A program made the translations under genes and the position numbers. The notes beneath the pieces are model-generated. The model searched no databases. It had not been told where the DNA came from and saw nothing but the letters and a program-made list of their open reading frames with translations. Shown here in pieces: positions 416 through 30,389 of a DNA stretch of 31,777 nucleotides (within the stretch, counting starts at the first letter, position 1; each line of letters begins with the position of its first letter). Source of the stretch: Vicinamibacteria bacterium (GTDB taxonomy: Bacteria > Acidobacteriota > Vicinamibacteria > Fen-336); contig DATBIZ010000404.1 of assembly GCA_036556645.1 (NCBI GenBank), positions 1-31,777 on the forward strand, read 5' to 3'.

Positions 416-491
416 TGGTGGAGCTGACGGGGATCGAACCCGTGACCTCGTGAATGCCATTCACGCGCGCTCCCAGCTGCGCTACAGCCCC
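416..491 (-). tRNA. tRNA-Ala (anticodon GGC), CCA encoded
   Basis: Reverse complement GGGGCTGTAGCGCAGCTGGGAGCGCGCGTGAATGGCATTCACGAGGTCACGGGTTCGATCCCCGTCAGCTCCACCA, 76 nt. Cloverleaf folds, G3:U70 alanine identity pair present, TTCGA T-loop. Confidence 0.98.
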
Positions 492-22280: not shown

Positions 22281-23594
22281 ATGGAACCGACGAGCCCTCC
22301 GGGACCGGCGCGTCCCGGGCGCGAGACACGGCTGCTGGCCCTCACCGTCGTGGTGTCGGCGCTGGTCCTGCTCGCGCTCTCGCGGTTCCGTTTCCCCGAA
22401 GGCTCCCCGCGCGTCGCGCCAACCCCGCCGGCCGCGCTCGCGCTGGAACAGCTCGCCGCCCGCGCGACCTACGACGAGCTGGCGGCGATCGTGGCGCAGT
22501 TGCAGGCGCAGCTCGCTCGCAGCGTGGTGGCCCTGCCGGTCGAAGACGGGGCCGCCGCCGCGGCGCAGCAGATGCCGGCGCGTCCCGGCTTCGTGCCGGG
22601 ACTGCGCGTCGCCGCCGATCGCGCGCTGGCGCTCCTTCCGCGGGGCGCGCGCCTGCAGGGGCCGGCCGCCGCCGCCGCCGTGATCGATACCGTGCACCGC
22701 CTCGCCGTGCTGCCGGTAGCGGCGGACGCCGAGGCGCTGAGGTGGGGCGGCGAGGCGGGCGACCCGGCGCTGGGTCCGCGCTACGTGATCGCGGTCGAGG
22801 GGGGACGGGCGGGAGCGGCGTTCCGGCCGGTCTTCCTCCCCCGCGCCGACGCCGCGCACGACCCGCACTGGGGCGGCGAGGTGCTGGTGCTCGGCGGAGC
22901 GGTGCAGGTGCAGCCCGGGGCGCTGCTCTTCACGCTGCGCGGCCGGTTCCTCGGCCTCGCCATCGCCGATCACGGCTACCCCGCGATCGTGCCGACCGAG
23001 ACGCTCATGCGGGCGTCGGCGGCCCTCCTGGCCGGGCAGGCGCCGGCTCCCGTGGACCTCGGCATCGAGGTGCAGCCCCTCGACGACGCGCTCGCGCGGG
23101 CGGCCAACGTCCGCCGCGGACTGCTCGTCACCGCCGTGCATCCGAATGGCCCGGCGGCGGGCCGCTTGCAGTTCTCCGACGTGATCCAGGCGTCGGACGG
23201 CCAGCCCGTGGATTCCGAGGAGGCGCTCCTCGCCGCGGCGCGGCGTGCGCGTCCGGACCAGCCGCTTCGGTTGACCGTCGCGCGGCGGGGCGACACGCGC
23301 GAGGTCGCGCTGCTGCCGGTGCGCGGCCCGGTGCCCTCGACGCCGGGGGAGCCGGGCCTCGAGTTGCGCGCGCTCGCGAGCGGTGGGGCCGAAGTGGTGC
23401 GGGTGTTCCCCTCGAGCCCGGCGGCGCGCGCGGGACTGCGGCCCGGGGACGTCGTCGTGCATGCGGGCGACCAGCGGACGGCCACGCCCTCCCAGATCCG
23501 GCGCGCGTTCGCGGAGGCCCCCGCGGGAGGAGCGATCCTGTTAGCGATCGACCGCGGCGGCACGTGGATCGCGCTCGCGCTGGTGAAGGAATGA
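22281..23594 (+). CDS. Membrane-anchored HtrA/DegP-like protein with a degenerate protease domain and two PDZ domains
   Basis: 437 aa. N-terminal TM helix, trypsin-like segment lacking GNSGG, two PDZ-like domains (LLVTAVHPNGPAAG; VVRVFPSSPAARAGLRPGDVV). Confidence 0.75.
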   Translation: MEPTSPPGPARPGRETRLLALTVVVSALVLLALSRFRFPEGSPRVAPTPPAALALEQLAARATYDELAAIVAQLQAQLARSVVALPVEDGAAAAAQQMPARPGFVPGLRVAADRALALLPRGARLQGPAAAAAVIDTVHRLAVLPVAADAEALRWGGEAGDPALGPRYVIAVEGGRAGAAFRPVFLPRADAAHDPHWGGEVLVLGGAVQVQPGALLFTLRGRFLGLAIADHGYPAIVPTETLMRASAALLAGQAPAPVDLGIEVQPLDDALARAANVRRGLLVTAVHPNGPAAGRLQFSDVIQASDGQPVDSEEALLAAARRARPDQPLRLTVARRGDTREVALLPVRGPVPSTPGEPGLELRALASGGAEVVRVFPSSPAARAGLRPGDVVVHAGDQRTATPSQIRRAFAEAPAGGAILLAIDRGGTWIALALVKE

Positions 23595-24757
23595 GGCGCT
23601 ACGACTCGAGCGAGGTCGGCGGCCCCGACATCCTCGACGTCGAGGTCGCCGCCTCGCCGCGCGCCGGCGCCCTGGCCCGCCTCCGGACGCGGGCGGCGCT
23701 GGGCCTGGAGCCGGCGCTCGCGCCCGCGGTCGTGTTCGTGCCGCTGGGCGTGCTGCTCGGCCCCCTGGTGCTCGGCATCGTGTCCGAGGAGGTGCTCGCG
23801 CACCTCGATACGGTGGTCTCGATCGCGCTGGCCGCGCTCGGCGTGTTCGTGGGCGTCGCGGTGGACCTGCGCGACCGCACCAGCCGGCGCACGCTCGTCG
23901 CCGCCAGCGTGGAGGCGCTGGTCACGATCGCGGTCGTGCTGGGGGCGGCGCTGATCCTCTTCGCGGCGTGGGGCCTTCGCCTGGACGCGAATCCCTGGTC
24001 GGTGGCGCTGATCCTCGGGATCTCCGCCTCCGCTTCGTCCGCCGGCGCCGTGGACGACGGGGCCGCCGGCGCGGACCGCGCGGCGGCCGCCATCGCGAAC
24101 CTCGACGACGTGCTGCCGCTGCTGCTGGGCGGCGTGGCCCTGGCCTGGGGCGCCGGCCAGCCGCCGCTCTGGGCCGTGGTGAGCGCGGTTCACACCGTGC
24201 TGCTCGGCGCGGGGGTGGCGGCCGCGGGCTGGCTGCTGTTCGAGCGTGCGCACGGCGCCGCGGAGCGCGCGGTGTTCGTGGTCGGCACCGTGGTGCTGCT
24301 CGGCGGCGTGGCCGCCTACCTTGCACTGTCCCCGATGCTGGCCGGGCTGGCGGCCGGGGTGTTCTGGACGTCCGCGCCCGGCCGCGCGGAGAAGGTCATC
24401 CGGGACGACCTGGGCAAGATCCAGCACGCGCTGGTCGTGCTGCTGCTGGTCACGGCGGGCGCGAGCCTGGTGTGGACCCCGATCGCGCTGTGGCTGTTCG
24501 CGCCGTTCGTGGTCTTCCGGCTGGCTGGAAAGCTGATCGGAGGATCGCTGGCGGCCTGGCTCGTCCCGCACGTGGCCCCGGCCGATCTGGGCTCGCACCT
24601 GATCGCCCCCGGCGTCCTCGGCCTGGCGTTCGCGTTGAACTTCCAGCAGGTCGCCCCCTCCGCCACCGCGGCCGCCGTGCTGGCCGCGGCGACCGCCGGC
24701 TCGCTCGCCTGCGAGGTGCTCGGCGTCTGGGCCCGGCCGCGCCCGGCCCGCGGCTGA
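23591..24757 (+). CDS. Cation:proton antiporter (CPA2-like), subunit A
   Basis: 388 aa from ATG 23591 (ATGA overlap). Many TM helices, SASASS and NLDDV motifs, FRLAGK. Confidence 0.75.
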   Translation: MRRYDSSEVGGPDILDVEVAASPRAGALARLRTRAALGLEPALAPAVVFVPLGVLLGPLVLGIVSEEVLAHLDTVVSIALAALGVFVGVAVDLRDRTSRRTLVAASVEALVTIAVVLGAALILFAAWGLRLDANPWSVALILGISASASSAGAVDDGAAGADRAAAAIANLDDVLPLLLGGVALAWGAGQPPLWAVVSAVHTVLLGAGVAAAGWLLFERAHGAAERAVFVVGTVVLLGGVAAYLALSPMLAGLAAGVFWTSAPGRAEKVIRDDLGKIQHALVVLLLVTAGASLVWTPIALWLFAPFVVFRLAGKLIGGSLAAWLVPHVAPADLGSHLIAPGVLGLAFALNFQQVAPSATAAAVLAAATAGSLACEVLGVWARPRPARG

Positions 24758-26067
24758 TGGGCCGCGCCGCCGCCGTCGCGCTGGTCTTCCTGGTGATGGT
24801 GTGGGTCCGCCGCGCGGCTCCGGAGGGCGCGGAGACGCGCGGCGCCGCCCTCGCGCTCGGCTTCGCGCTGATCGCGGCGGCGGTGACCGGCGCGCTGTTC
24901 GAGCGCGCGCGGCTGCCGCGCATCAGCGGCTACCTGCTGTTCGGGCTCGCCTGCGGCCCCTACGTGGCGGACCTCATCTCGCGGCCGATGGCGCGGTCGC
25001 TGCAGCTCGTGAACGGTTTGGCCATCGCCTTGATCGCGTTCGTGGCCGGGCTGGAGATGAACCTGCTGCGCCTGCGCCCGCAGTGGCGGGCCATCCTGCG
25101 GCTGGGGGGCGTCACCCTCGCCTTCGTGTACGCGGTGATCTTCGCGGTGCTGTGGGCGGCGTGGCCGCTGCTGCCCATCTGGCCGGAGGCCACCGGCCTG
25201 CCGCGACTGGCCGTGTCCGCCCTGGCCACGACCGTGGTCGTGAGCTTCTCGCCGACGGTCACGATCGCGGTGATCGCGGAGAGCCGCGCGCGCGGGCGCC
25301 TCACCTCGCTGGTGCTGGCGCTGGTGGTGATCACGGACCTGGCCTTGATCCTGTTGTTCACCCTGGCCATGCAGTTCGCGCGGTGGGCCCTGGGGGGAAC
25401 CGCGGCCGAGGAGGTCGCTCTCGGGGCGCGCCTGGCCTGGGAGATCCTCGGCTCGTTCGCGTTCGGCGCCATCGTGGGCGCGGCCTTCGCGGTGTACCTG
25501 CGCCTGGTCGGCCGCGAGCTGACCGTGGTGCTGCTCGCGGTGTGCGGGCTGCTGAGCGTGCTCGGCGACCGCCTGCACTTCGAGCCGCTGCTGGCCGCGC
25601 TGGCCGCCGGGCTCGTGGTCGAGAACGTCGCCCCGCCGAGCGGGGATGCGCTCAAGGACGCGGTGGAGCGCGGCGCGCTGCCCGTCCTGATCCTGTTCTT
25701 CGCGGCGGCCGGCGCCTCCATGCACGTGGACGCGCTGGCCACGGTCGGTCTGGTCGCGCTCGCCGTCTCCGCGGTGCGGATGGCCGCGGTGCGGGCGGGC
25801 GTGGCACTGGGCAGCCGGGCGGCCGGCCTCTCCCCGCCGTTGAGCCGCCTGGTCTGGATGGGGCTGGTCTCGCAGGCCGGGGTGACGCTCGGGCTCACGA
25901 TCCTGGTGGCGGCGGAGTTCGCGGACTGGGGCGCCACGCTGCAGACGCTGATGGTCGCGCTGATCGCGCTGCACGAGCTGATCGGACCGATCCTGTTCCG
26001 CACCGCGCTCGCGCGCGCGGGCGAGATCGGACGGATGGACGCGCCGGAGGAGGCCGCGCCGGCCTAG
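24757..26067 (+). CDS. Cation:proton antiporter (CPA2-like), subunit B
   Basis: 436 aa from ATG 24757 (TGATG overlap). LPRISGYLLFG...GP, AFVAGLE, SFSPTV, ITDL, SQAGVTLGL, HELIGP...ALARAGE. Confidence 0.85.
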   Translation: MGRAAAVALVFLVMVWVRRAAPEGAETRGAALALGFALIAAAVTGALFERARLPRISGYLLFGLACGPYVADLISRPMARSLQLVNGLAIALIAFVAGLEMNLLRLRPQWRAILRLGGVTLAFVYAVIFAVLWAAWPLLPIWPEATGLPRLAVSALATTVVVSFSPTVTIAVIAESRARGRLTSLVLALVVITDLALILLFTLAMQFARWALGGTAAEEVALGARLAWEILGSFAFGAIVGAAFAVYLRLVGRELTVVLLAVCGLLSVLGDRLHFEPLLAALAAGLVVENVAPPSGDALKDAVERGALPVLILFFAAAGASMHVDALATVGLVALAVSAVRMAAVRAGVALGSRAAGLSPPLSRLVWMGLVSQAGVTLGLTILVAAEFADWGATLQTLMVALIALHELIGPILFRTALARAGEIGRMDAPEEAAPA

Positions 26068-26074
26068 CCTAACC

Positions 26075-27169
26075 CTAGCCGGCCCCGCCCGAACGTTCGC
26101 CGAGGCCCTTGGCCAGCTCCACCGCCAGGAACGGGTTGCGCAGCATCACCGCGCGCAGCGCGGTGCCGTCCAGCGCGAGAAGCTCCGCGTCCTCCACGAC
26201 GCGGGCCGAGTGGTTGCGCGGTTCGCCGACCAGCGCGCTGGTGACCCCGAAATGCCCGCCCGCGCGCACGGACGTCTTCGCGCCGCCCGGGGTGACCAGC
26301 TCCACCGTTCCGGCGCGCAGGACGTACAGGCGGTCGCCGGGGTCGCCCACCCGGTAGATGGCCTCGCCCGCGCGGGACTTCGCGAAGCGCGCGCCCACCG
26401 CGAGGTCGGCCAGGTCCCCGCGGGAGATGCCGGAGAACAGGCCGACCAGCGCGAGCGCCTCCACCGCGTCGGGCTCCTGCTCGCCCTGGCCGCCGGGGCG
26501 GGTGGAGGTCACGAACTGCAGCACCTCCGGCAGGTCGGGCCGGTGCGCGGCCAGGATCACGTTCGCGCCCGCGTCGATCACCGTGCTGCCCTCGGTGACG
26601 GCGACCTCGCCCATCTGCGACTCCACCGCGATGAACACGCAGTTGCGGGGGAACCCCGGCCGCCGCACGATCTCGGAGACCTTCAGCCCCGCCACCGGCG
26701 AGCCGGCCGGGATGCGCACGTCGAAGGCGACGATGTCGTGCCGGCCCACCTGCATCAGGGCGCCGATGGCCGGGAACTCGATCGAGGTGAGGAAGGAGCT
26801 GACCAGGATGTCGGCCTCGCTGTGGATCTTGGTGGCGCCGACCAGCCGGTAGGGGACCTCGTATTGGGGGTTGAGCATGCGGGCGAGCACGCGCGGCACG
26901 CCGTAGTAGCGGGCGAGCAGGCAGAAGGCGAGGTTGTCCGCGTCGCGGCCCATCATCGCCACCGCCACGTCCGCGCGCTTGATCCCGGCGCGCTCGAGCA
27001 CGTCCATGTCCGTGGCGCTGCCGGTGGACACCACCACGCCCTGCTCCTCGAAGATGCGGTCCGTCACCTCGCGCGAGACGTCGATGACGACGGTGTCGTG
27101 GCCGTGCGCGACCAGGCGCGTGACCAGGTGCGTGCCCATGTGCCCGGCCCCCGCCACCACCACGTACAC
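26075..27169 (-). CDS. TrkA/KtrA-like RCK_N-RCK_C protein fused to a C-terminal cyclic-nucleotide-binding domain
   Basis: 364 aa from GTG 27169, 2 nt after the CPA1 stop. GAGHMG Rossmann motif, VVID, GSATD..LERAGI..AD, DADNL, RCK_C (IPAGSPVAGLKV), then CNBD (IYRVGDPGDRLYVLRAGTV...HFGVTSALVGEPRNHSARVVEDAELLAL). Confidence 0.85.
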   Translation of the reverse strand: MYVVVAGAGHMGTHLVTRLVAHGHDTVVIDVSREVTDRIFEEQGVVVSTGSATDMDVLERAGIKRADVAVAMMGRDADNLAFCLLARYYGVPRVLARMLNPQYEVPYRLVGATKIHSEADILVSSFLTSIEFPAIGALMQVGRHDIVAFDVRIPAGSPVAGLKVSEIVRRPGFPRNCVFIAVESQMGEVAVTEGSTVIDAGANVILAAHRPDLPEVLQFVTSTRPGGQGEQEPDAVEALALVGLFSGISRGDLADLAVGARFAKSRAGEAIYRVGDPGDRLYVLRAGTVELVTPGGAKTSVRAGGHFGVTSALVGEPRNHSARVVEDAELLALDGTALRAVMLRNPFLAVELAKGLGERSGGAG

Positions 27170-27171
27170 CC

Positions 27172-28710
27172 CTACCCCCTCTCCTCGAGATCGGACAACG
27201 CGGCCAGCGACTCGTCGATGTGGGCGGCGAGCGCCGCTCCGCCCTCGTCGCTCAGGATCCCGGAGCCGACCGCGTCCTGGATCGCGCTCTTCTCCACGGC
27301 GAGGAGCCGGCGGCGGACGGCGCGGGTCTGGCGCTGCTCCTCGCCGGAGTGCGCCACGAGCAGGTCCTGCAGGTGCCGTTCCGAGCGCGCGATCACCCCC
27401 TGGTACGCGGCGCGCAGGCGCTGGAAGAGGCCGAGCGGCACCAGGCCCAGGCGCTGCAGCCGGTCCAGCTCGGCCTGCGCGGCGCGGGCGGCCAGGAGGC
27501 GGCCCTGCTCCTGCTCCAGCCGGCGCGCTTCGGGCGAGCCGGCGACGCCGAGCCAGCGCGCCACCGGCGCCAGCGTCAGGCCCTGCACGGTGAGGGTCAC
27601 CAGCGCGCAGCCGAAGACGACCGCGCGCAGCAGCGGCCGCTCCGGCAGCCATTGGGGCAGGCTCAGCACCAGGGCCATCGAGAGGCTGCCCTTGAGGTTG
27701 CCCCAGACCATCAGGTGCTGCCAGGGCAGGGGCACCGGCGTGCCGCGGCGGTGGAGCAGCGACAGGAACGGGTAGATCGCGGCGGCGCGCCCTGCGGTCA
27801 GCGCCAGCAGCCCCCACCCGATCGCCGGCGCGGCGGCGAGCAGCGTCGCGAACTCGATCTGCAGGCCGACGAGCAGGAACACGACGCTGTTCACCCCGAA
27901 CGCCGCCACCTCCCACACCGAGCGGATCGCCACCTTGCCGGTCGGGGTCACCGCGTCCCAGCCGGCGGCGCGGACGGTGATGCCCGCGGCGACCACGGCC
28001 AGGATCGGCGACGCCCCCAGCGCCTCCGCGATCGCGGACGAGGCGTAGGTCACGATCACCGTGACCATGATCTCCATCAGGTGGTCGTCGATCCGCCGCA
28101 TCACGTGCGAGGCCGCGTAGCCGACCGCGACCCCGACCAGCAGGCCGGCGGCCGTCACCCACACCAGCTCCACGAAGCCGACCGCGGGATCGAAACGGCC
28201 GCGCTGGATCACCGCCAGCACGGTCGTGAACGCGACCAGGGCGGTGCCGTCGTTGAAGAGGCTCTCGTTCTCGACGATGGTGGCCAGCCGCGGCGGCACG
28301 CGGACCTTCCGGAACCCCGCGATCACCGCGATGGTGTCGGTGGTGGCGAGGATGCAGCCGAGGAGCAGGGCCACGCCCCAGTCCAGGCCGAGCCCCGCGC
28401 GCACGACCGCGCCGGTGACGAACACGGTGGCGAGCATGCCCGGCACCGCCAGCAGCACCACCGGGGCCAGGTTGTCGCGCAGGCGGGCCAGGTCGGTGGA
28501 GAGCGCGGCTTCGAAGAGCAGGATCGGCAGCAGCACGCGCAGCACGACGTCGGCGTCCAGGGCCACGTGCGGCACGAGCTGCGACGCGCCGAGCGCCACG
28601 CCGGCCAGCACCAGCGCGATGTTGTAGTGGATGCGCAGGCGCTTCGCGGCGAGGGCCACCACCGCGGCCACCAGCAGCAGCTCGACGACGACGGTGATCT
28701 CCCCGTGCAT
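27172..28710 (-). CDS. CPA1-family Na+(K+)/H+ antiporter (NhaP-like)
   Basis: 512 aa. LLPILLFEAA, TDTIAV, ENESLFNDG (CPA1 ESxxND motif), WEVAAF..NS..FLLVGL, soluble helical C-terminal tail. Confidence 0.92.
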   Translation of the reverse strand: MHGEITVVVELLLVAAVVALAAKRLRIHYNIALVLAGVALGASQLVPHVALDADVVLRVLLPILLFEAALSTDLARLRDNLAPVVLLAVPGMLATVFVTGAVVRAGLGLDWGVALLLGCILATTDTIAVIAGFRKVRVPPRLATIVENESLFNDGTALVAFTTVLAVIQRGRFDPAVGFVELVWVTAAGLLVGVAVGYAASHVMRRIDDHLMEIMVTVIVTYASSAIAEALGASPILAVVAAGITVRAAGWDAVTPTGKVAIRSVWEVAAFGVNSVVFLLVGLQIEFATLLAAAPAIGWGLLALTAGRAAAIYPFLSLLHRRGTPVPLPWQHLMVWGNLKGSLSMALVLSLPQWLPERPLLRAVVFGCALVTLTVQGLTLAPVARWLGVAGSPEARRLEQEQGRLLAARAAQAELDRLQRLGLVPLGLFQRLRAAYQGVIARSERHLQDLLVAHSGEEQRQTRAVRRRLLAVEKSAIQDAVGSGILSDEGGAALAAHIDESLAALSDLEERG

Positions 28711-28721
28711 AACCGGCCGCG

Positions 28722-28778
28722 ATGATAGCGCGCAGACCGCGGCCCGGTTCGATTCGGGCGTGACTCTCCTCTAGAATA
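28722..28778. promoter_or_regulatory. Divergent -10 elements for the CPA1 operon (-) and the ALDH operon (+)
   Basis: Minus TATCAT (28727-28722), 11 nt before ATG 28710. Plus TAGAAT (28772-28777), which overlaps a minus-strand TATTCT (28778-28773). Confidence 0.5.
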
Positions 28779-28817
28779 GGCGCCGCGCGGGGCACGGCCA
28801 TCCCGCAAGAGGTCCCG

Positions 28818-30389
28818 GTGAGCACGACGGGTGAGCGCGTCACCTACGCGACCCTGGCCGCGGGCCAGACCGAAGACTTCCGCCGCAGGTTCGACGAGGC
28901 GGTGGCACGCCTGCGCGCGGGGCTCGGCGGGACGCACCCGCACCGGATCGCCGGCGGAGGCGCGGGCGGGGGCGCGGCGACCTTCGAGGACCGCAGCCCC
29001 GCCGACACCCGCCAAGTGATCGGCCGGTTCCCCGCCGGCACCGCCCAGGACGTGGACCACGCGGTGGCGGCCGCCCGCCGCGCCGTCCCGGCCTGGCGCG
29101 CGCGCGGCTGGCGCGAGCGCGCGGCGATCCTGCGCCGCGCCGCCGACCTGATCGAGGAGCGCGGCTTCGACCTCTCCGCGCTGGTGTCGCTCGAGGCCGG
29201 CAAGAGCCGGCTCGAGGCCATGGGCGACGTGACCGAGACCGCCGATCTCGTCCGCTACTACTGCGACCAGATGGAGGCGGCCGGCGGGTTCGAGCGCGCG
29301 ATGGCGCGCTTCTCCCCGCAGGAGGAGACGCGCTCGGTGCTCCGGCCCTACGGCGTGTGGGCGGTGATCAGCCCCTTCAACTTCCCGGCCGCGCTTTCCG
29401 GCGGCCCGGCCGGCGGCGCGCTGGTGGCCGGCAACACGGTGGTGCTCAAGCCGAGCCAGGAGACGCCCCTCACCGCCGATGCGCTGTGGCGGGTGTTCGC
29501 GGACGCCGGCCTGCCCGAGGACGTGCTGCAGGTGGTGCACGGGCCGGGCGCGACCGGCGAGATGCTGGCGCGGCACCCCGGCGTGGACGGGCTGCTCTTC
29601 ACCGGCTCGAAGGCGGTCGGCATGTCGCTGATAGAGGGGTTCGCGCGCGAGTTCCCCCGGCCGATCATCACGGAGATGGGGGGCAAGAACCCCGCGATCG
29701 TGATGCCCTCCGCCGACCTCGACGCTGCGGCCGAGGGCGTGATGCGCTCGGCCTTCGGCCTGCAGGGGCAGAAGTGCTCCGCCTGCTCGCGCGTGTACCT
29801 GCACCGCGACGTGAAGCAGGCCTTCCTCGACCTGCTCCTCGACCGGACCGCGCGGCTCACCGTCGGCGATCCCACCCGTCACGGCGTGTTCCTCGGCCCG
29901 GTGATCCACGAGCGCGCGTACGCCGCCTATCTGCGCCACGCCGAGGCCGCGCGGCGCGACGGCCGCGTGCTGGCCGGGGGGAAGGCGCTGCGCGAGGGCG
30001 ACCTCGCGCACGGCTACTTCGTCGCGCCCACGGTCGTGGACGGGCTCTCGCAGGACCACCCGCTCTTCCGCGAGGAGCTGTTCGTCCCGCTCCTCTGCGT
30101 GGCCGAGGTGCGCTCGCTCGACGAGGCGCTGGAGTGGGCCAACCGCACCGAATACGGGCTCACCGCCGGGATCTTCAGCGGCGAGCCGGCCGAGGTGGAC
30201 GCGTTCCTCGACCGCATCGAGGCCGGCGTCGTCTACGTGAACCGGCGGGCGGGCGCCACCACGGGCGCCTGGCCGGGGGTCCAGCCGTTCGGCGGGTGGA
30301 AGGGCAGCGGCTCGTCCGGCAAGGCGTCGGGCGGCCTCTACTACGTCCAGCAGTTCATGCGCGAGCAGAGCCGTACCATCGTCCATTAA
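28818..30389 (+). CDS. NAD(P)+-dependent aldehyde dehydrogenase, P5C-dehydrogenase (RocA)-like
   Basis: 523 aa. ISPFNFP, VLKPS, FTGS, EMGGKN, QGQKCSACSR (catalytic Cys), EELF, YGLTAG, QPFGGWKGSG. Confidence 0.9.
   Translation: MSTTGERVTYATLAAGQTEDFRRRFDEAVARLRAGLGGTHPHRIAGGGAGGGAATFEDRSPADTRQVIGRFPAGTAQDVDHAVAAARRAVPAWRARGWRERAAILRRAADLIEERGFDLSALVSLEAGKSRLEAMGDVTETADLVRYYCDQMEAAGGFERAMARFSPQEETRSVLRPYGVWAVISPFNFPAALSGGPAGGALVAGNTVVLKPSQETPLTADALWRVFADAGLPEDVLQVVHGPGATGEMLARHPGVDGLLFTGSKAVGMSLIEGFAREFPRPIITEMGGKNPAIVMPSADLDAAAEGVMRSAFGLQGQKCSACSRVYLHRDVKQAFLDLLLDRTARLTVGDPTRHGVFLGPVIHERAYAAYLRHAEAARRDGRVLAGGKALREGDLAHGYFVAPTVVDGLSQDHPLFREELFVPLLCVAEVRSLDEALEWANRTEYGLTAGIFSGEPAEVDAFLDRIEAGVVYVNRRAGATTGAWPGVQPFGGWKGSGSSGKASGGLYYVQQFMREQSRTIVH

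What the first reader, a model, noticed from the sequence alone, without database searches (positions are those of the whole stretch)
26075..28710. CPA1 antiporter with a dedicated RCK_N-RCK_C-cNMP-binding regulatory subunit
Seen: a NhaP-like CPA1 is followed 2 nt later by a TrkA-like protein (GAGHMG at 27151-27134) with a fused CNBD, and no TrkH/KtrB pore gene is in the window. Known: RCK_N binds adenine nucleotides/NAD(H); RCK_C binds c-di-AMP in KtrA/KtrC-type proteins; CNBD-regulated CPA1 exchangers exist in eukaryotes (SLC9C1, plant SOS1) with the CNBD in cis. Inference: a two-protein bacterial antiporter that integrates energy state and a cyclic-nucleotide signal through a trans-acting subunit. 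I do not recognise this architecture as characterised.
Basis: partly seen in the sequence, partly recalled or inferred. Interest (0 to 1): 0.75.

Follow-up and report, generated by a model that had tools for sequence, protein, structure and literature searches.

The report
Antiporter with RCK-CNBD partner gene
A soil acidobacterium encodes a plant-SOS1-like cation/proton exchanger next to a previously undescribed regulatory protein that joins a nucleotide-sensing RCK module to a cyclic-nucleotide-binding domain. The two genes always travel together, but the cyclic-nucleotide pocket in this particular copy is damaged.

Summary
A 512-aa CPA1 gene (27172-28710, minus strand) is followed 2 nt later by a 364-aa TrkA_N + TrkA_C + cNMP_binding protein (26075-27169).

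**Linkage**
- Every three-domain ortholog with assembled upstream DNA has the CPA1 ortholog immediately upstream.
- Among 60 relatives, the two genes occur in the same genomes.
- Three near-complete genomes that carry the pair have no detectable TrkH/KtrB.

- The c-di-AMP signature of RCK_C domains is absent (0 of 50 family members).
- The family's phosphate-binding cassette is canonical, but the window's own clade has lost the ribose-binding Glu (E309V) and the Thr/Ser after the Arg (T319N). Its CNBD also evolves faster than the rest of the protein.
- One lineage has lost the CNBD altogether.
- The pair belongs to a wider, uncharacterised set of CPA1 + single-RCK operons.

**Comparison and verdict**
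- The exchanger's closest solved relatives are SOS1 and SLC9C1, which carry a CNBD in cis.
- The known analogues with a trans-acting RCK subunit are KhtTU and CpeAB.
- No paper in the searched library describes this architecture.
- Verdict: a new variant of a known kind. The module is real and conserved but taxonomically narrow, and interaction, ligands and ion specificity are untested.

The parts
27172..28710 (-). CPA1 (NhaP-II/SOS1-like) cation/proton antiporter gene, 512 aa
   Evidence: PF00999 3.1e-65 and TIGR00831 254 bits, below the 279.6 cut-off. Closest solved relatives are SOS1 (3.6e-36) and SLC9C1 (1.1e-32). Foldseek top hits are SOS1/SLC9C1 at TMq 0.70-0.72.
28336..28341 (-). T124-D125, the TD motif of the CPA1 ion-binding site
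   Evidence: Invariant in the 17-sequence alignment A2. Aligns to the SOS1 'TD' in the alignment.
28249..28254 (-). N153-D154, the ND motif of electroneutral CPA1 exchangers
   Evidence: Invariant in A2. Aligned to ESLMNDG of SOS1.
27178..27534 (-). Cytoplasmic C-terminal four-helix domain of the CPA1 (aa 393-511); candidate docking platform for the RCK-CNBD protein
   Evidence: AF2 model has helices 393-420, 426-454, 456-482 and 488-511. Full-length Foldseek alignments to SOS1/SLC9C1 span about 535 columns, against about 420 for transmembrane-only entries. The docking role is inference.
27175..27186 (-). Shine-Dalgarno-like GAGGAGAGGGGG inside the end of the CPA1 gene; the genes are 2 nt apart (translational coupling)
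   Evidence: Read directly. Orthologous pairs have spacings from a 4-nt overlap to 12 nt.
26075..27169 (-). RCK_N-RCK_C-CNBD protein gene, 364 aa, GTG start
   Evidence: Pfam domains. AF2 model pLDDT 82.8. Foldseek finds TrkA/KtrA/MthK RCK domains and PKA-R CNBDs.
26810..27169 (-). RCK_N (TrkA_N) Rossmann domain, aa 1-120, with GAGHMG at 27134-27151 and Asp30
   Evidence: G7, G9, G12 and D30 are conserved in 46-50 of 50 members. Closest solved sequence is Vibrio TrkA at 2.5e-21.
26516..26722 (-). RCK_C (TrkA_C) domain, aa 150-218, lacking the c-di-AMP signature
   Evidence: PF02080 at 29.6 bits. The signature (I/L)(I/L)x2Dx1Rx5N(I/L)(I/L), quoted in PMC7132281, is found in 0 of 50 members strictly and 1 of 50 relaxed.
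26099..26461 (-). Cyclic-nucleotide-binding domain, aa 237-357
   Evidence: PF00027 1.8e-15. The profile aligns to PKG/PKA/MloK1 CNBDs.
26204..26251 (-). Phosphate-binding cassette, aa 307-322. Non-canonical in this copy: Val309 (26243-26245) replaces the ribose-binding Glu, and Asn319 replaces Thr/Ser
   Evidence: Family columns: E 47/50, R 48/50, T/S 29/50. Val occurs only in the window, P0003 and P0004 among the 50 aligned, and also in the near-identical fragment P0120. The codon is unchanged in an independent soil contig.
28711..28817 (.). 107-bp divergent intergenic region between the CPA1 gene and an aldehyde dehydrogenase gene; presumed promoter region of the two-gene operon
   Evidence: ORF map. 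No sigma-70 consensus site was found. The ALDH neighbour is kept in close relatives.

Best explanation
This is a two-gene operon for a regulated secondary transporter. The membrane part is an electroneutral CPA1 Na+(or K+)/H+ exchanger of the NhaP-II/SOS1 type, with TD and ND motifs and a cytoplasmic four-helix tail. The second gene encodes a soluble, TrkA-type single-RCK protein with a C-terminal CNBD. I infer that this protein binds the cytoplasmic face of the exchanger and acts as its dedicated gating subunit, as KhtT does for KhtU and CpeA for CpeB. The RCK_N Rossmann site (GxGxxG...D) most likely reads an adenine nucleotide (ATP/ADP or NAD(H)). In most family members the CNBD, which has a canonical FGE...PR(T/S) cassette, adds a cAMP/cGMP input. 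In the window's own species the cassette has lost the ribose-binding Glu and the Thr after the Arg, so here the CNBD probably binds cNMP weakly or not at all. It may then serve as a ligand-independent structural or autoinhibitory module, as the CNBD-like domain of SOS1 is thought to. Shown: the gene structure, the domains, the conservation of the pair, the absence of TrkH in three near-complete carrier genomes, and the motif states. Inferred: physical interaction, ligands, direction of regulation and ion specificity.
For: - Domains.
- Adjacency: in all 9 relatives' genomes with upstream DNA and on further NCBI, JGI and metagenome contigs. It also holds in two divergent three-domain clusters at 34-39% identity.
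- Co-occurrence: the same 9 of 60 relatives carry both orthologs, whereas the 34-37% CPA1 paralogs have no RCK gene beside them.
- No TrkH in G012, G017 and G025, which are 94-100% complete, and none in G000.
- The nearest CNBD-less RCK relatives (P0123, P0146, P0157, G025) also lie directly downstream of a 512-538-aa CPA1 gene. A more distant single-RCK clade member follows a TrkH gene, so the method can tell the two situations apart.
- The family cassette is canonical.
- The genome encodes at least 3 class III cyclases and at least 8 other CNBD proteins.
- Precedents for trans-acting RCK subunits of CPA antiporters: CpeA-CpeB (PMC7132281) and KhtTU (PMC11067040 and bioRxiv 10.64898/2026.03.23.713699).
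Against: - No interaction or transport data exist, and these tools cannot co-fold two proteins.
- The window's cassette is non-canonical (E309V, T319N).
- CNBD dN/dS is 0.52 against the same-genus ortholog, compared with 0.20-0.37 for close pairs with a canonical cassette. There are few pairs, and dS is compressed by 97% GC3.
- One nested lineage has lost the CNBD and kept the pair, so the CNBD is dispensable.
- One three-domain cluster (P0129) sits on a short contig whose 267 upstream nt show no CPA1.
- The RCK part is TrkA-like, not KhtT-like, so the KhtTU analogy is functional, not orthology.
- RNA evidence is a single 182-nt metatranscriptome contig at 96.7% identity.
Confidence: 0.65

Rival explanations
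1. The RCK part regulates the CPA1, but the CNBD is vestigial or purely structural throughout the window's clade. This copy would then work as a plain CPA1 + RCK pair with no cyclic-nucleotide input.
For: E309V and T319N occur in the window's clade, and same-genus G001 has Asp after the Arg. The CNBD is the fastest-evolving domain, with dN/dS 0.52. The CNBD was lost in G025/P0123, which are nested inside the family. P0137 has a degenerate GD...PH cassette.
Against: The CNBD frame is intact and its dN/dS is still below 1. Gly308 and Arg318 are retained. 47 of the 50 aligned family members keep the canonical Glu. The Val variant recurs unchanged in independent soil samples, which indicates a real, recurring allele rather than an assembly error. 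CNBDs with altered cassettes can bind other ligands.
Confidence: 0.2
2. The protein is an ordinary TrkA/KtrA-type subunit of a Trk/Ktr K+ uptake channel encoded elsewhere, and its place next to the CPA1 is incidental.
For: Public pipelines name the homologs 'trk system potassium uptake protein TrkA'. The RCK part is closest to TrkA among solved structures. G019 and G031 do have TrkH genes on other contigs.
Against: No TrkH was found in G000, G012, G017 or G025. Adjacency to and co-occurrence with the CPA1 are strict. NCBIfam TrkA equivalogs score 105.7 bits or less against cut-offs of 289 or more. True TrkH-linked single-RCK proteins fall in a separate, well-supported clade.
Confidence: 0.03
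3. The RCK-CNBD protein serves the convergent antiporter genes (23591-26067, plus strand), or several antiporters at once, rather than the upstream CPA1 specifically.
For: A further PF00999 gene ends 7 nt from the RCK-CNBD stop codon. In L001/L002 a 408-423-aa Na_H_Exchanger gene follows the RCK-CNBD gene. L003 has another about 4 kb away.
Against: The convergent operon is not found next to the pair in other genomes; only a 30%-identical CPA gene lies 1.3 kb away in L029. Only the upstream CPA1 is invariably linked and co-inherited.
Confidence: 0.05
4. The genes are co-transcribed, but the soluble protein has another job (for example a cNMP- or NAD-responsive factor acting on a different target) and does not touch the exchanger.
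For: No interaction data exist. One three-domain homolog (P0129) may stand alone, and a related single-RCK protein (P0175) sits next to PLD-family genes.
Against: RCK proteins have no known role other than regulating ion transporters or channels (established knowledge). Tight translational coupling and perfect co-occurrence are typical of subunits of one complex.
Confidence: 0.07

Closest known systems
KhtTU (YhaTU) K+/H+ antiporter of Bacillus subtilis
   Same: A membrane CPA antiporter plus a separately encoded soluble RCK_N-RCK_C protein from the same operon, acting as a nucleotide-controlled regulatory subunit (PMC11067040; bioRxiv 10.64898/2026.03.23.713699).
   Different: KhtU is CPA2, whereas here the partner is an SOS1-like CPA1. 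KhtT is activated by c-di-AMP, whereas here the c-di-AMP signature is absent. KhtT has no CNBD. The RCK part here is TrkA-like and does not hit KhtT by sequence.
CpeABC of Streptomyces venezuelae
   Same: An RCK_C-containing soluble protein (CpeA) encoded with a cation/proton antiporter (CpeB). A nucleotide second messenger promotes their interaction (PMC7132281).
   Different: CpeB is NapA-like (CPA2). The ligand is c-di-AMP. [quoted passage not shown]
SLC9C1 (sperm Na+/H+ exchanger) and plant SOS1/NHX7
   Same: These are the closest solved relatives of the window's exchanger by sequence (E 3.6e-36 and 1.1e-32) and by fold, including the cytoplasmic helical domain. They are CPA1 exchangers associated with a CNBD. 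Like the window's copy, SOS1's CNBD-like domain is not known to need cNMP.
   Different: The eukaryotic CNBD is in cis on a long C-terminal tail, with a voltage sensor in SLC9C1. Here the CNBD is in trans on an RCK scaffold. The CNBD here is not specifically similar to theirs: the best CNBD matches are PKG, PKA and MloK1. A review states that the exchanger + CNBD combination is not present in bacteria (PMC7573149).
CPA antiporters with RCK/KTN domains in cis: KefC, B. subtilis/S. aureus CpaA, E. coli YcgO (CvrA)
   Same: An RCK-type cytoplasmic domain controls a CPA exchanger. YcgO is a CPA1 (PMC11808508).
   Different: The domains are fused to the transporter. Their ligands are glutathione adducts/AMP, c-di-AMP or PtsN. 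None has a CNBD.
TrkA/KtrA gating rings of TrkH/KtrB K+ channels
   Same: The same RCK_N + RCK_C fold, and the best sequence match for the RCK half. The adenine-nucleotide site motif is conserved.
   Different: The partner is an antiporter, not a TrkH/KtrB pore, and several carrier genomes have no TrkH. There is a single RCK unit plus a CNBD, and it falls in a separate clade from two-RCK TrkA and from TrkH-linked single-RCK proteins.

Membership tests
CPA1 (NhaP-II/SOS1-type) cation/proton antiporters | Na_H_Exchanger transmembrane domain (PF00999) | tested here: met
   3.1e-65, 220.9 bits, profile positions 2-375 of 375.
CPA1 (NhaP-II/SOS1-type) cation/proton antiporters | TD and ND ion-binding motifs (ND rather than the DD of electrogenic CPA2) | tested here: met
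   T124, D125, N153 and D154 are invariant in A2 and aligned to the SOS1 motifs.
CPA1 (NhaP-II/SOS1-type) cation/proton antiporters | NCBIfam equivalog TIGR00831 (a_cpa1) score above its cut-off | tested here: not met
   254.1 bits against a 279.6 cut-off. Full-length match, residues 7-505. It is a relative of that equivalog, not a certified member.
CPA1 (NhaP-II/SOS1-type) cation/proton antiporters | Fold like solved CPA1 exchangers | tested here: met
   Foldseek: SOS1 3e-18 at TMq 0.72, SLC9C1 3e-17, NHE1, NHE9, and MjNhaP1/PaNhaP.
RCK (TrkA_N + TrkA_C) regulatory proteins | Rossmann RCK_N with GxGxxG and an acidic residue at the end of strand 2 | tested here: met
   PF02254 at 2.1e-23. G7, G9 and G12 in 49-50 of 50 members, and D/E30 in 50 of 50.
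RCK (TrkA_N + TrkA_C) regulatory proteins | RCK_C (TrkA_C) domain | tested here: met
   PF02080 at 29.6 bits against a 27-bit cut-off. Foldseek matches full RCK units of KtrA, TrkA and MthK.
Trk/Ktr K+ uptake systems (TrkA/KtrA subunit) | A TrkH/KtrB pore partner in the genome, usually adjacent | tested here: not met
   No PF02386 in G000 (71.5% complete) or in G012, G017 and G025 (94-100% complete). A CPA1 is the invariable neighbour.
Trk/Ktr K+ uptake systems (TrkA/KtrA subunit) | NCBIfam TrkA equivalog scores above their cut-offs | tested here: not met
   Best is 105.7 bits against a 293 cut-off.
c-di-AMP-binding RCK_C domains (KtrA, KtrC, CpaA, CpeA type) | Signature (I/L)(I/L)x2Dx1Rx5N(I/L)(I/L), as quoted in PMC7132281 | tested here: not met
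   0 of 50 strict and 1 of 50 relaxed. F179, I180 and E183 are kept, but the Arg position is variable and the Asn position is Val.
cNMP-competent CNBDs (PKA/PKG/CAP/MloK1 type) | cNMP_binding fold (beta-roll with N- and C-terminal helices) | tested here: met
   PF00027 at 1.8e-15. AF2 strands at 260-334 flanked by helices. Foldseek matches PKA-R.
cNMP-competent CNBDs (PKA/PKG/CAP/MloK1 type) | Phosphate-binding cassette: Gly-Glu ... Arg-(Thr/Ser/Ala) | tested here: not met
   The window has G308 and R318, but V309 instead of Glu and N319 instead of Thr/Ser. The family as a whole meets the feature (E 47/50, R 48/50, T/S 29/50).
cNMP-competent CNBDs (PKA/PKG/CAP/MloK1 type) | Measured binding of cAMP or cGMP | not testable with these tools
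   Needs ITC, DSF or DRaCALA.
Two-component RCK-regulated CPA antiporters (KhtTU/CpeAB type) | Soluble RCK protein encoded in one operon with a CPA antiporter | tested here: met
   2-nt spacing. Conserved in all informative loci.
Two-component RCK-regulated CPA antiporters (KhtTU/CpeAB type) | Membrane partner of the CPA2 type (KhtU, CpeB) | tested here: not met
   The partner is a CPA1 with an ND motif and is SOS1-like.
Two-component RCK-regulated CPA antiporters (KhtTU/CpeAB type) | Physical interaction and ligand-dependent control of transport | not testable with these tools
   No multimer prediction or experiment is available here.

The most novel reading that the evidence does not exclude
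The pair is a bacterial, split counterpart of the eukaryotic CNBD-controlled CPA1 exchangers (SLC9C1, SOS1). The exchanger is SOS1/SLC9C1-like down to its cytoplasmic helical domain and receives its CNBD in trans, mounted on an RCK scaffold. One secondary transporter would then be gated jointly by an adenine nucleotide and, in canonical-cassette members, by cAMP/cGMP. This would be the first cyclic-nucleotide-gated cation/proton antiporter described in prokaryotes and the first RCK protein with a second, unrelated nucleotide sensor.
Probability: 0.35. Interest if true: 0.75.

Novelty: new variant of a known kind. Interest (0 to 1): 0.55.

Why it matters
RCK subunits that act in trans on cation/proton antiporters have so far been studied only with CPA2 partners and c-di-AMP (KhtTU, CpeAB). 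CNBD control of a CPA1 exchanger has been studied only in eukaryotes, with the CNBD in cis (SLC9C1, SOS1), and a review states that this combination does not occur in bacteria.

This module joins both ideas in two small bacterial proteins that should be easy to express, which would make it a compact model for how cytoplasmic sensor domains gate an elevator-type exchanger.

The family also offers natural controls:
- members with a canonical cassette,
- the window's Glu-to-Val variant,
- a lineage without the CNBD.

It also shows that proteins annotated as 'TrkA potassium uptake protein' in Vicinamibacteria are not Trk subunits.

Tried and rejected
- **TrkH/KtrB partner.** I searched the own genome and five carrier genomes. 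None was found in G000, G012, G017 or G025, so this reading is rejected.
- **c-di-AMP sensing by RCK_C.** The signature is absent. A phmmer search of the RCK_C region alone against the PDB gave only chance hits.
- **KhtT orthology.** The RCK half hits TrkA and KtrA but not KhtT at E <= 0.01.
- **Linkage to the convergent antiporter operon.** It is not conserved elsewhere.
- **Phylum-wide presence.** 0 of 400 evenly sampled genomes of the phylum had a match, but only 2 of those were from the window's own family. The pattern-based scan of genome contigs found only Vicinamibacteria/Acidobacteriota MAGs. The ESM Atlas labels the cluster 'Myxococcota', which I could not verify.
- **P0124 (318 aa).** Its Arg/Pro-rich C-terminus looks like a frameshifted CNBD, so I left it out.
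- **dN/dS at deeper divergences.** It is unreliable because GC3 is near 97%, so only close pairs were used.
- **Regulatory elements.** Promoter, terminator and Rfam scans found nothing around the operon.
- **Expression.** Metatranscriptome support is a single short contig from a relative, which is not enough to show expression or co-transcription.
- **Literature.** Searches found no description of a TrkA_N-TrkA_C-cNMP protein. The library does not cover all journals.
Full report
**1. What is in the sequence**

The window has about 74% G+C. It is contig C404 of a 4.63-Mb, 730-contig MAG that is 71.5% complete.

On the minus strand, ORF 27172-28710 encodes a 512-aa protein:
- It matches the full Pfam Na_H_Exchanger domain (3.1e-65).
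- It matches NCBIfam TIGR00831 'a_cpa1' over its whole length, at 254 bits against a 279.6-bit cut-off.
- Its TAG stop lies at 27174-27172.

Two bases later, a GTG at 27169 opens a 364-aa ORF that ends at 26075. A GAGGAGAGGGGG run precedes the GTG. This second protein has three Pfam domains:
- TrkA_N at residues 3-117 (2.1e-23)
- TrkA_C at 150-218 (29.6 bits, cut-off 27)
- cNMP_binding at 266-345 (1.8e-15)

An AlphaFold2 model built on 50 homologs has mean pLDDT 82.8, with a low-confidence linker at 224-229. Foldseek finds TrkA, KtrA and MthK RCK units and PKA-R CNBDs.

An independent soil-metagenome contig of 1455 nt spans the gene junction.

**2. Surroundings**

- Upstream, and divergent, lie an aldehyde dehydrogenase gene and a class-III aminotransferase gene.
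- Downstream, a plus-strand gene cluster converges on the RCK-CNBD gene and ends 7 nt from its stop codon. It holds an HtrA-like protein with two PDZ domains, a 388-aa protein with no Pfam hit, and a 436-aa Na_H_Exchanger protein.
- No ORF in the window matches TrkH, and the whole MAG has no PF02386 match.
- The MAG does encode at least three class III nucleotide cyclases, one diadenylate cyclase and at least eight other CNBD proteins. Both cNMP and c-di-AMP signalling are therefore available.

**3. Is the pairing more than chance?**

*Adjacency.*
- A search of 5.8 billion proteins found over 100 full-length three-domain homologs at 57-91% identity. Most come from soil metagenomes, and the few named ones are Acidobacteriota/Vicinamibacteria MAGs.
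- On every contig or genome where such a homolog has upstream DNA, the CPA1 ortholog (57-84% identical) lies immediately upstream on the same strand. Spacing ranges from a 4-nt overlap to 12 nt.
- This holds for four public contigs with otherwise unrelated flanks, for nine relatives' genomes and for the genome-contig loci.

*Co-occurrence.* Among 60 related genomes, the CPA1 ortholog and the RCK-CNBD ortholog occur in the same nine genomes (G001, G012, G017, G019, G021, G023, G025, G030, G031). A tenth genome (G003) carries the RCK-CNBD gene at a contig start. CPA1 paralogs at 34-37% identity in the sister family have no RCK gene next to them.

*The convergent antiporter cluster* is not found next to the pair elsewhere.

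*TrkH.* Of five carrier genomes checked (92-100% complete), three (G012, G017, G025) have no TrkH-family gene. The other two have it on other contigs.

**4. How wide is the family?**

- A profile search of 1.84 billion representatives (50% identity clusters) returned only four clusters that match all three domains end to end: the main family plus P0129, P0131 and P0137.
- P0131 and P0137 are 39% and 34% identical to the window's protein, on contigs of 56% and 72% G+C. Each follows a CPA1 gene with a 4-nt overlap.
- P0129 lies on a 3.1-kb contig whose 267 upstream bases show no CPA1.
- The nearest relatives without a CNBD (P0123, P0146, P0157, and the 228-aa protein of G025) also lie directly downstream of a 512-538-aa Na_H_Exchanger gene.
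- Two more distant single-RCK proteins do not. P0185 follows a TrkH C-terminus and P0175 lies among PLD-family genes.
- In a maximum-likelihood tree of the RCK halves, all single-RCK proteins separate from two-RCK TrkA (support 100/100). The TrkH-linked type forms its own supported clade. The CNBD-less G025/P0123 pair is nested inside the CNBD-bearing family, which indicates loss. P0131/P0137 form a separate CNBD-bearing clade.
- Within the phylum, none of 400 evenly sampled genomes had a match. That sample held only two genomes of the window's own family, in which 10 of 36 genomes carry it.
- The locus itself is present in at least 24 soil and rhizosphere DNA runs.

The picture is a wider, uncharacterised class of 'CPA1 + dedicated single-RCK' operons. 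The CNBD fusion is a rare variant of that class, concentrated in one family of Vicinamibacteria.

**5. The sensor domains**

*RCK_N.* G7-x-G9-H-M-G12 and Asp/Glu30 are conserved in 46-50 of 50 members. This fits an adenine-nucleotide site as in TrkA, the closest solved sequence (2.5e-21). Which nucleotide binds cannot be told from sequence.

*RCK_C.* The ligand signature for c-di-AMP-binding RCK_C domains, (I/L)(I/L)x2Dx1Rx5N(I/L)(I/L), is quoted in PMC7132281. It is found in 0 of 50 members strictly and 1 of 50 relaxed. By my mapping of the signature onto the domain, the hydrophobic pair and an acidic residue (F179, I180, E183) are kept, but the Arg position is variable and the Asn position is Val.

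*CNBD.*
- The family consensus cassette is FGE(M/R)xALTGEPR(T)x(T)ARV. Gly is invariant, Glu is present in 47 of 50, Arg in 48 of 50, and Thr/Ser after the Arg in 29 of 50. It aligns residue for residue with the cassettes of PKG, PKA and MloK1.
- Only the window and its two closest aligned relatives (at least 87% identical), plus the near-identical fragment P0120, read FGV...PRN. The ribose-binding Glu and the Thr/Ser are gone.
- The same-genus genome G001 keeps Glu but has Asp after the Arg.
- Against G001, dN/dS is 0.12 for RCK_N, 0.17 for RCK_C and 0.52 for the CNBD. Three close pairs with canonical cassettes give 0.20-0.37 for the CNBD.
- These figures are suggestive only. There are few pairs, and dS is compressed by extreme GC3.
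- The Val codon is unchanged in an independent soil assembly.

I conclude that the family as a whole probably senses cAMP or cGMP, and that the window's own copy probably does so poorly or not at all.

**6. The exchanger**

- T124-D125 and N153-D154 are invariant in 17 orthologs and paralogs. This ND pattern is that of electroneutral CPA1 exchangers.
- By sequence, the closest solved structures are Arabidopsis and rice SOS1 (3.6e-36, 4.4e-30) and sea-urchin SLC9C1 (1.1e-32). They rank well ahead of NHE9, NHE6, NHE1 and NHE3 (about 1e-22 to 1e-15) and archaeal NhaP (about 1e-9).
- An AF2 model (pLDDT 83.2) has 13 transmembrane helices followed by four long cytoplasmic helices at residues 393-511.
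- Foldseek ranks SOS1 and SLC9C1 first, with about 535 aligned columns against about 420 for transmembrane-only entries. The helical tail is therefore part of the match, although with large rmsd.
- The tail is not special to RCK-linked copies. The unlinked 35-37% paralogs align through it as well.
- Whether the substrate is Na+ or K+ cannot be decided from sequence.

**7. How it most likely works**

The best-supported model (confidence 0.65) is a two-protein regulated exchanger. The soluble RCK-CNBD protein binds the cytoplasmic face of the CPA1 dimer, and ligand-dependent conformational change in the soluble subunit opens or blocks transport. Like other RCK proteins, the soluble subunit probably works as a dimer or larger ring. 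The precedents are KhtT/KhtU and CpeA/CpeB, where a nucleotide promotes interaction or activity (PMC7132281; PMC11067040; bioRxiv 10.64898/2026.03.23.713699).

- Shown: gene order, coupling, co-inheritance, domain and motif states, and independence from TrkH.
- Inferred: the contact itself, the docking site on the helical tail, the ligands (adenine nucleotide at RCK_N; cNMP at the CNBD where the cassette is canonical) and the sign of regulation.
- For the window's own copy, I rate 'CNBD without cNMP response' at about 0.2 as a distinct rival.
- The Trk-subunit reading and the 'serves the convergent antiporters' reading are each 0.05 or less.

**8. Comparison with what is known**

- *By logic,* the closest systems are KhtTU and CpeAB. 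Both have CPA2 partners, use c-di-AMP and lack a CNBD.
- *By the exchanger's ancestry and the exchanger + CNBD combination,* the closest are SOS1 and SLC9C1. There the CNBD is in cis. A review states that the exchanger + CNBD combination is 'not present in bacteria' (PMC7573149).
- The CNBD here is not specifically related to the eukaryotic ones, so the resemblance is best read as convergence.
- *As members of a family,* the two proteins pass the tests for CPA1 and for RCK proteins. They fail the tests for Trk/Ktr subunits and for c-di-AMP-binding RCK_C domains. The window's CNBD fails the cassette test that most of its family passes.
- Searches of about 8.4 million papers found no description of a TrkA_N-TrkA_C-cNMP protein. 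The library is incomplete, so this is absence of evidence.

**9. Verdict**

- The module is real and conserved, and I found no published description of it.
- It is a new variant of a known kind (RCK-regulated cation/proton antiporters).
- It is of moderate interest (0.55).
  - In its favour: a new domain architecture, an unexpected SOS1/SLC9C1 parallel and built-in natural controls.
  - Against it: a narrow range in uncultured bacteria, no functional data and a degenerate cyclic-nucleotide pocket in this particular copy.

Noticed in passing
window 22281-26067 (+): A convergent gene cluster ends 7 nt from the RCK-CNBD stop codon. It holds an HtrA-like protein with two PDZ domains (22281-23594), a 388-aa protein with no Pfam hit at E<0.001 (23591-24757) and a 436-aa Na_H_Exchanger protein (24757-26067, 6.8e-25). 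The cluster is not found next to the CPA1/RCK-CNBD pair in other genomes.
   Followed up: partly
L003 7128-12454; L037 6678-8794; L065 4687-7953: In three loci, the genes beside the pair include a Hydrolase_3/S6PP-like phosphatase, a mannosylglycerate-synthase-type glycosyltransferase (PF21969) and an AI-2E-family transporter. This looks like a compatible-solute (osmoadaptation) neighbourhood. Other loci have glycogen-metabolism genes (alpha-amylase, GH57, debranching enzyme) beside the pair.
   Followed up: no
L037 6001-6687 (genome G025) and L065 4001-4696 (P0123): A natural CNBD-less version of the RCK protein (228-231 aa, 74% identical over the RCK part) sits next to the orthologous CPA1. 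It is nested within the CNBD-bearing family in the tree, so it is a secondary loss.
   Followed up: yes
window 26075-28843 (-): The reading frame of the RCK-CNBD gene stays open for 922 codons, right through the overlapping CPA1 gene. This is a high-GC artefact that could mislead gene callers about the start of the RCK-CNBD gene.
   Followed up: partly
window about 27694-27708 (-), CPA1 residues about 335-339: The loop 'WGNLKG' has Lys where SOS1 aligns an Arg ('WSGLRG'). The L037 ortholog and the consensus of alignment A2 also have Lys. Any meaning for ion selectivity or pH sensing is unknown.
   Followed up: no
L001 and L002 1-1242; G000 contig C448 2564-2938: Vicinamibacteria genomes also carry a Kef-like Na_H_Exchanger + TrkA_N fusion (577 aa) a few kb from the pair. 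The window's own MAG has a second TrkA_N match in a 604-codon frame on C448, which I did not characterise.
   Followed up: no
window 419-491 (-): A tRNA gene, the only Rfam match in the window (62.5 bits).
   Followed up: no
L020-L028 (relatives without the pair): Ordinary TrkA-like genes in related genomes occur as tandem pairs of single-RCK genes about 33% identical to the window's RCK half, with no CPA1 adjacent.
   Followed up: partly
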